Assembly (NCBI GenBank): GCA_024685275.1
Contig: JAIKVY010000187.1
Coordinates: 1,432 to 65,431 of the forward strand
Source of the DNA: Clostridia bacterium
Lineage (GTDB): Bacteria > Bacillota > Clostridia > Christensenellales > DTU072
DNA length: 64,000 bases
Direction of reading: 5' to 3'
Below are positions 24,465 through 24,539 of this stretch, piece after piece. A model generated the notes under the pieces. The model did not search any database and was not told where the DNA came from. It was given only the letters and a program-made list of their open reading frames with translations. A program made the position numbers and the translations under genes. Numbering within the stretch: the stretch's first letter is position 1; each line of letters opens with the position of its first letter.

Positions 24465-24485
24465 TTCTCGCCATTGACTAATAAG

Positions 24486-24539
24486 TCAAAGCTGAGAATT
24501 TGGTAAATAAGGAAGTATCTTATAATGCCATATTCTCAT
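24486..24539 (-). CDS. N-terminal 17-codon segment of the same gene, ended by an in-frame TGA
   Basis: GAGGAG RBS 7 nt before ATG 24539. MRIWHYKILPYLPNSQL-TGA-LISQWRELNSIF, in the same frame as 24081..24464. Confidence 0.6.
   Translation of the reverse strand: MRIWHYKILPYLPNSQL

What the first reader, a model, noticed from the sequence alone, without database searches (positions are those of the whole stretch)
24474..24494. Second 'X-stop-X' interruption: CTT-TGA-CTT inside a perfect hairpin in a DenV/TIGR02328-like glycosylase gene
GAGGAG and the ATG at 24539 open MRIWHYKILPYLPNSQL. A TGA follows (24488..24486), and the same frame continues as LISQWRELNSIFVKQ... into ORF 24081..24464. The stop is flanked by identical Leu codons (CTT TGA CTT). 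Skipping the stop plus one CTT gives LPNSQLISQWRE. As I recall, the family signature is LPxxQLLGQHRE, so the skip restores the family spacing, whereas readthrough adds two residues. Directly after the take-off codon the RNA can form UUGACU-UAUU-AGUCAA (24489..24474). This is a perfect 6-bp stem that contains the stop codon and the landing codon, reminiscent of the take-off stem-loop of T4 gene 60. Two independent genes with the same architecture in one 64-kb window are hard to explain as random nonsense mutations.
Basis: partly seen in the sequence, partly recalled or inferred. Interest (0 to 1): 0.8.

Follow-up and report, generated by a model that had tools for sequence, protein, structure and literature searches.

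The report
Conserved leaky stop in phage repair gene
A phage DNA-repair gene carries an in-frame TGA stop that is real, is shared by at least five diverged relatives and still looks selected on both sides, so ribosomes probably get past it, either by reading it as tryptophan or by hopping over it; which of the two cannot be told from sequence.

Summary
On the minus strand, ATG 24539 opens a Pyr_excise (T4 DenV-like) gene that is interrupted by CTT-TGA-CTT (TGA 24488..24486) and continues in frame to 24081.

The TGA is not an error or a private mutation. Five diverged homologues from independent assemblies carry CTT-TGA-CTN at the same codon. One relative has CTT-TGG-CTT. About 250 other homologues lack these 6 nt.

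TGA is a normal stop elsewhere in this phage (10 of 54 genes; 225 in-frame TGG against 1 TGA), so this is not genetic code 4.

The 26 codons around the stop evolve with dN/dS of about 0.17, so the gene is probably still translated through the stop.

The 6-nt insert TTGACT is the exact inverted copy of AGTCAA 4 nt downstream. That explains the hairpin as a likely by-product of how the insert arose. The hairpin is weak in three of the five TGA lineages and shows no covariation.

My ranking:
- Leaky UGA-C read as Trp: about 0.45.
- A dead allele: about 0.15.

The second site, CGA-TAA-CGT in the helicase Walker A motif, is real but a singleton (0 of 119 homologues).

The parts
24081..24539 (-). 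DenV-like (Pfam Pyr_excise) gene, 152 codons including the in-frame TGA at codon 18
   Evidence: PF03013 scores 41.7 to 50.1 bits against a cutoff of 23. TIGR02328 scores 44 to 51 bits, below its curated cutoff of 121.
24547..24552 (-). Shine-Dalgarno-like GAGGAG, 7 nt upstream of the ATG
   Evidence: A GGAG-type motif lies upstream of the ATG in most insert-bearing relatives too.
24486..24488 (-). In-frame TGA, followed by C (the UGA-C context)
   Evidence: The same codon is TGA in L003, L018/L019, L020 and L021, and TGG in L001/L002.
24489..24491 (-). Upstream Leu codon CTT (candidate take-off codon). CTT-TGA-C is the same heptamer as the prfB +1 shift site.
   Evidence: CTT in 6 of 6 insert-bearing lineages. 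CTT makes up only 11% of Leu codons in the window.
24483..24485 (-). Downstream Leu codon CTT (candidate landing codon)
   Evidence: CTT, CTA or CTC in relatives, never TTR.
24484..24489 (-). 6-nt insert relative to the family. Written as TTGACT it is the exact reverse complement of AGTCAA at 24479..24474.
   Evidence: Alignments A3, A4 and A9; inverted repeat.
24463..24500 (-). Extended hairpin or quasi-palindrome enclosing the stop, with 17-nt arms and a 4-nt loop
   Evidence: Energy is -14.6 kcal/mol in the window, -6.9 to -11.1 in the other insert-bearing sequences and -2.6 to -5.4 in insert-less ones. No covariation.
24477..24539 (-). Mosaic 5' patch. At the nucleotide level it is close to the other insert-bearing alleles, whereas the rest of the gene is closest to insert-less alleles.
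   Evidence: Nucleotide identity to the window, patch/rest: L001 0.92/0.61; L016 0.74/0.87. The 88.8% identity to L013 starts at 24476.
15752..17083 (-).
   Evidence: NCBI annotates only the 405-aa downstream part (MCR4661667.1).
16991..16996 (-). 6-nt insert CGATAA inside the Walker A motif (LPCR|*R|SGKS). It creates the palindrome AACGTT.
   Evidence: Relatives read CCT TGT CGT TCA GGT AAA. None of 119 homologues has an insert. Palindrome.
14898..15749 (-). GIY-YIG (SegE-like) free-standing homing endonuclease directly downstream of the helicase
   Evidence: Its 76% homologue sits in the same position next to an intact helicase in L036.

Best explanation
A 6-nt insertion, TTGACT, entered the most conserved N-terminal stretch of a phage DenV-like gene. 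It was probably templated from the inverted AGTCAA 4 nt downstream. It created CTT-TGA-CTT.

The allele has persisted. It has diverged and has recombined as a patch of about 65 nt into several gene backgrounds, while the codons on both sides stayed under protein-level selection. Ribosomes therefore must pass the UGA at some rate.

The route I think most likely is near-cognate decoding of the weak UGA-C stop by tRNA-Trp. That gives a full-length protein with two extra residues (…SQL-WL-ISQWRE…), the same design as the intact TGG allele in a relative. Output would be a few percent of normal, so the stop acts as a strong expression attenuator.

Shown: the stop is real, it is conserved, it is not code 4, there is selection on both sides, and a TGG allele exists. 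Inferred: that Trp is inserted, the efficiency, that the LW protein is active, and the template-switch origin. A minor fraction of ribosomes may also hop from CUU to CUN.
For: (1) TGA sits at the same codon in the window, L003, L018/L019, L020 and L021. These are separate samples with 58-85% amino-acid identity.

(2) L001/L002 have TGG there. L001's patch differs from the window's at 6 of 72 aligned positions.

(3) Codons 2-27 of the six insert-bearing lineages show 14 synonymous against 10 non-synonymous changes on 14.4 and 60.6 sites. That gives dN/dS of about 0.17, p = 2.5e-5. Downstream dN/dS is 0.10-0.32.

(4) There is no usable internal start. The catalytic N-terminus and Glu lie on opposite sides of the stop.

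(5) The codon after the stop is always CTN, never the preferred TTA. This keeps C at +4, the weakest UGA context by established knowledge.

(6) UGA is read as Trp at low level in E. coli and Salmonella. Readthrough reaches 6% at catA86-TGA in wild-type B. subtilis (PMC7918605). Conserved in-frame stops with dN/dS below 1 are widespread in prokaryotes (same paper).

(7) The AlphaFold model of the LW protein is confident. Mean pLDDT is 85 and residues 11-20 score 85; the helix simply starts 3 residues later.

(8) Sense-coded family members with Glu at residue 25 exist, so +2 residues before the Glu is tolerated elsewhere in this segment.
Against: - In every sense-coded homologue examined except L001, the LP…QWRE spacing is invariant. 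The only sequences that break it carry a stop there. That is what a hop, not readthrough, would predict.
- Both flanking codons are CTN Leu codons in all lineages.
- Closely related insert-less alleles have no stop, so a general need for low expression is not evident.
- The TGG allele is very recent, so it does not prove that the LW protein works.
- AlphaFold confidence in residues 11-20 drops from 96 in the canonical protein to 85.
- No suppressor tRNA or other readthrough stimulator was found.
Confidence: 0.45

Rival explanations
1. Natural +6 'stop-hop'. With CUU in the P site and the slowly terminated UGA-C in the A site, peptidyl-tRNA-Leu unpairs and re-pairs with the CUN codon 6 nt downstream. 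Nine nucleotides then encode one Leu, and the canonical protein (…SQLISQWRE…, Glu23) is made at low yield. The same would happen at CGA-UAA-CGU in the helicase through tRNA-Arg(ICG).
For: - Matched CTT/CTN codons flank the stop in 6 of 6 lineages, although CTT is 11% and CTN 27% of Leu codons.
- Skipping 6 nt restores the otherwise invariant family spacing and the T4 endonuclease V register, Glu23 to Glu23.
- The hop product sequence exists as a normal protein (P0044, …SQLISQWRE…).
- The helicase site has the same architecture at a place where readthrough would wreck the P-loop. None of 119 homologues has an insert there.
- Stop-hops with matched codons flanking a stop work at low level, without stimulatory signals, in synthetic E. 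coli constructs (PMC5009743; bioRxiv 10.1101/2024.12.09.627546).
Against: - No natural case is known (PMC5009743).
- The reported synthetic stop-hopping is described only as low-level; from memory (not checked here) the yields are no higher than UGA readthrough.
- The matched codons are partly explained by the insert being an inverted copy of AGTCAA seeded on a pre-existing CT/AG pair.
- The landing codon is CTA in L003, a wobble mismatch for tRNA-Leu(GAG).
- The TGG allele exists.
- The hairpin is not conserved.
- The helicase insert is a singleton and may simply be a knock-out.
Confidence: 0.3
2. A tolerated null or hypomorphic allele. The insert is a mutation that kills the gene. The enzyme is dispensable in a dark, anoxic gut habitat. 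The patch persists and spreads by ordinary phage recombination or hitch-hiking, and the apparent constraint comes from recent exchange with functional alleles.
For: - The patch has a phylogeny of its own, and the rest of each gene may have been linked to it only recently.
- Belinky et al. find that most in-frame stops in prokaryotes are short-lived and are enriched in the mobilome (PMC7918605).
- The helicase site in the same genome looks like a private disruptive mutation.
Against: - Within the patch itself, the stop has persisted while flanking synonymous sites diverged (CAG/CAA, CTT/CTA/CTC, CGA/AGA/CGC). dN/dS is 0.17 on both sides.
- There is no second stop or frameshift in any of six lineages.
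- The family as a whole is strongly conserved in the same habitats.
Confidence: 0.15
3. The phage or its host reads TGA as a sense codon generally (genetic code 4 or 25), uses a phage suppressor tRNA, or reads the TGA as selenocysteine.
For: The public protein database translated these genes with W at the stop. Relatives carry large tRNA arrays that include tRNA-Trp(CCA).
Against: - 10 of 54 genes in the window end in TGA, several in ATGA overlaps. There are 225 in-frame TGG against 1 TGA.
- In the short contigs, the other 'internal' TGAs are the true stops of neighbouring genes.
- The only tRNA in the window is Gln(UUG). No UCA-anticodon tRNA occurs in any locus.
- No SECIS-like hairpin lies downstream of the UGA, and the sense homologue has Trp, not Cys.
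Confidence: 0.04

Closest known systems
Leaky UGA stops read as Trp in bacteria and phages (for example B. subtilis catA86-TGA at 6%; the Qβ A1 readthrough protein, the latter from my own knowledge), and conserved in-frame stops in prokaryotic genes (Belinky et al. 2021, PMC7918605)
   Same: An in-frame UGA, a sense (TGG) orthologue, dN/dS below 1 around the stop, and occurrence in a mobile-element gene.
   Different: Here the stop is not a mutated Trp codon of the family. It lies in a 6-nt insert absent from about 250 homologues. It is flanked by matched Leu codons, and it has persisted across several diverged lineages instead of being short-lived.
Synthetic 'stop-hops' (Weiss, Dunn, Atkins, Gesteland 1987, as summarised in PMC5009743)
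   Same: Matched codons flank a stop. Nine nucleotides would give one amino acid. The product is two residues shorter than the readthrough product. No stimulatory signal is needed.
   Different: Those are engineered reporters in E. coli. No natural use is known. Here the product has not been observed.
Phage T4 gene 60 programmed bypass with its mobA homing-endonuclease cassette (Bonocora et al. 2011, as described in bioRxiv 10.1101/2022.08.31.505936)
   Same: A phage gene; an insert in a highly conserved coding stretch; a take-off codon followed by a stop inside a stem-loop; a matched landing codon.
   Different: The gap is 6 nt, not 50 nt. There is no evidence of a nascent-peptide signal. The hairpin is not conserved. 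No endonuclease gene lies next to the DenV-like gene. The endonuclease next to the helicase also occurs beside an intact helicase.
prfB (RF2) +1 frameshift site CUU UGA C (established knowledge)
   Same: The identical heptamer: a slippery CUU, an RF2-specific stop and a weak +4 C.
   Different: There is no upstream Shine-Dalgarno-like stimulator, and the +1 frame closes after 8 codons.
Quasi-palindrome template-switch mutations (Ripley; Lovett laboratory; my own knowledge)
   Same: The inserted bases are an exact inverted copy of nearby sequence and make an imperfect inverted repeat more perfect.
   Different: This concerns only the origin of the insert. It was not tested, and no pre-insertion allele was found.

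Membership tests
Pfam PF03013 Pyr_excise (T4 DenV / pyrimidine dimer DNA glycosylase) | Profile HMM score above the gathering threshold | tested here: met
   50.1 bits with the skip and 41.7 bits with readthrough, against a cutoff of 23.
Pfam PF03013 Pyr_excise (T4 DenV / pyrimidine dimer DNA glycosylase) | N-terminal segment and catalytic Glu in the T4 endonuclease V register (Glu23) | tested here: met
   hhalign pairs residue 7 with residue 7 and shows no gap up to about residue 38. The canonical family Glu is residue 23 (weak statistics, E = 0.004, probability 8%). The T4 sequence was verified against 2END. With readthrough the Glu is residue 25.
Pfam PF03013 Pyr_excise (T4 DenV / pyrimidine dimer DNA glycosylase) | Fold similar to T4 endonuclease V | tested here: inconclusive
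   2END is the top Foldseek hit for the LW model, but E = 1 and TM = 0.31-0.34. It is not recovered for the canonical model.
NCBIfam TIGR02328 | Score above the curated cutoff | tested here: not met
   44-51 bits against a cutoff of 121. It is a relative, not an equivalog member.
Programmed stop-codon readthrough (UGA read as Trp) | Stop conserved among diverged orthologues, with the ORF continuing in frame under purifying selection | tested here: met
   Five lineages; dN/dS 0.17 around the stop and 0.10-0.32 downstream.
Programmed stop-codon readthrough (UGA read as Trp) | An orthologue with the matching sense codon at the stop position | tested here: met
   TGG in L001/L002.
Programmed stop-codon readthrough (UGA read as Trp) | Trp-containing full-length product | not testable with these tools
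   Needs protein chemistry.
Translational bypass / stop-hop | Take-off and landing codons cognate to one tRNA, flanking a stop | tested here: met
   CTT…CTT/CTC in four lineages plus L001; CTA in L003, which is near-cognate.
Translational bypass / stop-hop | Product lacking the residues of the gap | not testable with these tools
   Only indirect support: the skip restores the family spacing.
T4 gene 60-type programmed bypass | Conserved take-off stem-loop supported by covariation | tested here: not met
   0 compensatory pairs; cells are broken in 3 lineages; only 4 bp remain in L003, L018 and L021.
T4 gene 60-type programmed bypass | A linked homing endonuclease whose cleavage the insert blocks | tested here: not met
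   No endonuclease lies beside the DenV-like gene, and the neighbour gene family is shared with insert-less loci. The helicase-linked GIY-YIG homologue coexists with an intact helicase. Cleavage itself is not testable.
Genetic code 4 phage | TGA used generally as a sense codon and not as a stop | tested here: not met
prfB-type +1 frameshift | CUU UGA C plus an upstream SD-like stimulator and an open +1 frame | tested here: not met
   The heptamer is present, but there is no SD-like element and the +1 frame stops after 8 codons.

The most novel reading that the evidence does not exclude
This is the first natural 'stop-hop'. In a clade of rumen and gut phage DenV-like genes, and possibly in the helicase of this phage, peptidyl-tRNA hops 6 nt from a codon to its matched copy across a stop. 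A 6-nt insert in an essential motif is thereby made harmless, in a miniature of T4 gene 60. The insert-bearing patch may spread because it protects a conserved target site from a nuclease.
Probability: 0.28. Interest if true: 0.85.

Novelty: new member of a known kind. Interest (0 to 1): 0.55.

Why it matters
In-frame stops in metagenomic phage genes are routinely written off as pseudogenes, or silently 'fixed' by code-4 gene calling, as happened to these sequences in a public protein database. This stop is conserved and selected, so it is a real case of expression through a stop codon.

It is also an unusually clean test case. The two possible products differ by exactly two residues (…SQLISQWR… against …SQLWLISQWR…). 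One mass-spectrometry or reporter experiment would decide whether natural stop-hopping exists. A 2016 review says stop-hopping is known only from synthetic constructs ('no occurrences are known', PMC5009743).

Tried and rejected
- **Code 4 or a suppressor tRNA.** Rejected on stop-codon usage and tRNA scans.
- **Selenocysteine.** No SECIS-like element lies downstream, and the sense homologue has Trp.
- **prfB-like +1 shift.** The +1 frame closes after 8 codons.
- **Independent start of the downstream ORF.** There is no ATG or SD. The listed TTG start (24464) lies downstream of the catalytic Glu codon, so that product would lack both the N-terminus and the Glu.
- **Homing-endonuclease immunity.** The idea was that the 6-nt inserts protect against an endonuclease, as in T4 mobA/gene 60. 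A GIY-YIG gene does sit next to the helicase. But its 76% homologue sits beside an uninterrupted helicase in L036, and no endonuclease flanks the DenV-like gene. Not supported, though not excluded for an endonuclease acting in trans.
- **Conserved RNA structure.** RNAalifold found 12 pairs and no covariation.
- **More carriers of the patch.** The pattern searches of viral contigs found nothing, the protein-based scans of viral contigs and metagenome contigs returned only more distant relatives not examined for the insert, and genome contigs gave 11 matches, of which the one inspected (L032) was unrelated and the rest look like chance.
- **A helicase Walker-A insert in IMG/VR.** One chance hit only.
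- **blastn against GenBank phages.** No match.
- **Sequence and fold searches of the PDB.** These did not recover T4 endonuclease V significantly.
- **P0044 as the pre-insertion allele.** It uses different codons.
- **A 4-bp anticodon-stem tRNA-Trp in relatives.** The L010 tRNA-Trp has a normal 5-bp stem by eye.

Full report
**What is there**

On the minus strand, a GAGGAG motif (24552..24547) and the ATG at 24539 open MRIWHYKILPYLPNSQL. Next comes TGA (24488..24486). The same frame then continues as LISQWRELNSIF… to the TAG at 24083..24081.

The Pfam Pyr_excise model (PF03013, the T4 DenV family) matches across the stop. It scores 41.7 bits if the stop is read through, 50.1 bits if the stop plus one Leu codon are skipped, and 21.2 bits for the downstream ORF alone. 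The cutoff is 23. TIGR02328 gives 44, 51 and 29 bits, all below its curated cutoff of 121. The protein is therefore a relative of that family, not an equivalog.

**The window**

The window is a phage of about 32% G+C. Nearly all genes up to about 59 kb lie on the minus strand. It encodes:
- a terminase, two DNA methylases and a primase-polymerase;
- an SF2 helicase;
- two free-standing homing endonucleases, one GIY-YIG and one HNH;
- one tRNA, Gln-UUG.

It comes from a 77,122-nt contig deposited as 'MAG: Clostridia bacterium' (protein MCR4661667.1). From the sample names, the related contigs appear to come from rumen or ruminant-gut metagenomes; this is my reading of the names, not a checked fact.

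**Not a different genetic code**

Ten of the 54 larger minus-strand genes end in TGA, several of them in ATGA start/stop overlaps. The same genes contain 225 in-frame TGG codons and this single in-frame TGA. No tRNA with a UCA anticodon was found in the window or in five related loci.

**The stop is conserved**

A search with the repaired protein found 653 homologues. In 104 of the best 110, the N-terminal segment has the canonical length (…LPxSQ-L-IAQWRE…). Six have two extra residues. One of the six (P0027) has its extra residues elsewhere. The other five read …SQLWL….

Reading their DNA showed that four of these five have TGA, which the database's gene caller had translated as W:

| Source | Sequence at the site |
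|---|---|
| window | CTT TGA CTT |
| L003 | CTT TGA CTA |
| L018/L019 (two samples) | CTT TGA CTT |
| L020 | CTT TGA CTC |
| L021 | CTT TGA CTT |
| L001/L002 | CTT TGG CTT (a true Trp codon) |

These genes are only 58-85% identical to the window's protein. On those short contigs the other 'internal' TGAs are the real stops of neighbouring genes, so they too use the standard code. Independent assemblies thus rule out a sequencing artefact or a private nonsense mutation.

**Selection**

Across the six insert-bearing lineages, codons 2-27 show at least 14 synonymous and 10 mostly conservative non-synonymous changes, on 14.4 synonymous and 60.6 non-synonymous sites. That gives dN/dS of about 0.17 (binomial p = 2.5e-5). 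Synonymous differences lie immediately next to the stop (CAG/CAA before it; CTT/CTA/CTC and CGA/AGA/CGC after it).

Downstream of the stop, pairwise dN/dS is 0.10-0.32. None of the six has a second stop or a frameshift.

The N-terminal residues carry the catalytic amine, and the Glu of QWRE carries the catalytic acid. The canonical family aligns residue-for-residue with T4 endonuclease V up to Glu23. The two halves are therefore useless apart. There is no usable start codon after the stop.

I conclude that the gene is most probably still expressed as one polypeptide through the stop (about 0.75-0.8).

**A mosaic patch**

The first 63-70 nt of the gene have their own history.

| Compared with the window | Patch identity | Rest-of-gene identity |
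|---|---|---|
| Insert-bearing alleles L001, L018, L020, L021 | 81-92% | 61-67% |
| Insert-bearing allele L003 | 90% | 83% |
| Insert-less alleles L016, L015, L013 | 59-74% | 85-87% |

The 88.8% identity to L013 begins at 24476, just after the insert, whereas the two genomes are about 68% identical elsewhere. Sequence upstream of the ATG is unrelated between carriers. The stop-bearing patch has therefore recombined into several gene backgrounds.

By parsimony on the patch, TGA is ancestral and the TGG of L001 is a recent change. L001's patch differs from the window's at 6 of 72 aligned positions.

**The hairpin and the origin of the insert**

The stop lies in an inverted repeat with 17-nt arms (24484-24500 and 24463-24479, 82% complementary, 4-nt loop). 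Its energy is -14.6 kcal/mol (z = -5.0). It is one of the five most stable local folds on the coding strand of the window.

Written as TTGACT, the 6-nt insert is the exact reverse complement of the AGTCAA that lies 4 nt downstream. A templated insertion of the quasi-palindrome, template-switch kind is thus a simple origin. This is an inference. It would explain both the stem and, in part, why a CT-starting codon sits on each side.

As a functional signal the hairpin is not supported:
- L003, L018 and L021 keep only a 4-bp inner stem.
- Energies in the other carriers are -6.9 to -11.1 kcal/mol, against -2.6 to -5.4 in insert-less alleles.
- RNAalifold finds 12 pairs with no compensatory change and four broken cells.

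**Readthrough or hop**

For readthrough:
- UGA followed by C is the leakiest bacterial stop context (established knowledge).
- UGA is read as Trp at low level in E. coli and Salmonella. Readthrough reaches 6% at catA86-TGA in wild-type B. subtilis (PMC7918605).
- The one sense-coded allele has exactly Trp.
- The codon after the stop is always CTN, never the preferred TTA (58% of Leu codons). This preserves the +4 C.
- AlphaFold models the LW protein confidently. Mean pLDDT is 85 and the helix starts 3 residues later.
- Family members with Glu at residue 25 exist, although their extra residues lie before the LP motif.

For a +6 hop:
- Both flanking codons belong to the CTN box in all lineages.
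- The skip restores a spacing that is otherwise invariant in about 250 sense-coded homologues.
- The predicted hop product exists as a normal protein (P0044).
- Synthetic stop-hops with matched codons work without stimulators (PMC5009743).

Against giving the hop the lead:
- There is no natural precedent.
- The reported synthetic stop-hopping is described only as low-level; from memory (not checked here) the yields are no higher than readthrough.
- L003 has a CTA landing codon.
- The matched codons have a mutational explanation.
- The patch tree is too shallow to show that TGG is selected against. One TGA-to-TGG change is about what neutrality predicts.

My ranking is readthrough 0.45, hop 0.30, dead allele 0.15 and other 0.10. 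The two routes may also operate together.

**The helicase site**

MLRDYQ…AVLPCR-TAA-RSGKSY… is real. Relatives read CCT TGT CGT TCA GGT AAA. The window reads CCT TGC CGA TAA CGT TCG GGA AAA, a 6-nt insert inside the Walker A motif.

All 119 full-length homologues retrieved have LPCR[SA]GK[ST] with no insert, so this is a singleton. Its local fold is unremarkable (z = -0.6). The insert only creates the palindrome AACGTT.

A GIY-YIG homing endonuclease lies directly downstream, which recalled the T4 mobA/gene 60 cassette. However, a 76% identical endonuclease occupies the same position beside an intact helicase in L036.

Readthrough of UAA into a P-loop with two extra residues is unlikely to work. 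The site is therefore either a hop site or a recent knock-out, and I cannot tell which.

The synonymous X-stop-X triplet by itself is common. There are 13 in the window over all frames, and no further convincing case in about 200 kb of related loci.

**Verdict**

The gene-60-like reading is only partly supported.

The feature is best filed as a new example of a conserved leaky stop, in an unusual setting: a templated 6-nt insert, matched flanking codons and a mosaic patch. It is also a good, directly testable candidate for natural stop-hopping.

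Noticed in passing
window 15752..17083 (-), insert 16991..16996: The SF2 helicase carries a 6-nt insert, CGATAA, inside the Walker A motif (LPCR-stop-RSGKS). All 119 homologues examined lack it. NCBI annotates only the 405-aa downstream fragment (MCR4661667.1).
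   Followed up: yes
window 14898..15749 (-) and 5553..6338 (-): There are two free-standing homing endonucleases. One is GIY-YIG/SegE-like, directly downstream of the helicase. The other is NUMOD4+HNH_3, directly downstream of the terminase large subunit (6409..7977). Relatives carry such genes at other positions (L009 6632..7306, L036 5322..5912 and 16273..17076).
   Followed up: partly
window 19690..19764 (-); L010 3989..7429; L009 6219..7437: The window has a single tRNA-Gln(UUG) between the DUF669-like gene and the primase. At the corresponding place the relative L010 has an array of 24 tRNAs, including Trp-CCA, Leu-UAG and Arg-ACG. L009 has 3, one of which ARAGORN reports as 'tRNA-???' with a two-base anticodon (6219..6288).
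   Followed up: no
window 24096..24476 (-) versus L013 10058..10414: The body of the DenV-like gene is 88.8% identical to a copy in L013. There it lies in a different genomic neighbourhood (next to a 633-aa helicase), and the genomes are otherwise about 68% identical. The gene behaves like a mobile 'moron' cassette.
   Followed up: partly
L003, L018-L021 (public protein database entries P0003, P0022, P0033, P0056): The gene calls on these short AT-rich contigs were made with genetic code 4. In-frame TGA is shown as W, and neighbouring genes are run through their true TGA stops in ATGA overlaps. This hides real in-frame stops and inflates protein lengths.
   Followed up: yes
window 47497..47533 and 55381..55417 (-): These are the two most stable local RNA folds on the coding strand (-19.6 and -15.4 kcal/mol). 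The first falls in the ORF-free gap 47164-47623 and the second in the gap between the ORFs ending at 55307 and 55433; the second is followed by a T-run. They look like intrinsic terminators.
   Followed up: no
window 24483..24491 (-): CTT TGA C is the same heptamer as the conserved prfB (RF2) +1 frameshift site. Here the +1 frame ends after 8 codons (DLLVNGEN*), so a shift would only give a 25-residue dead-end peptide.
   Followed up: yes
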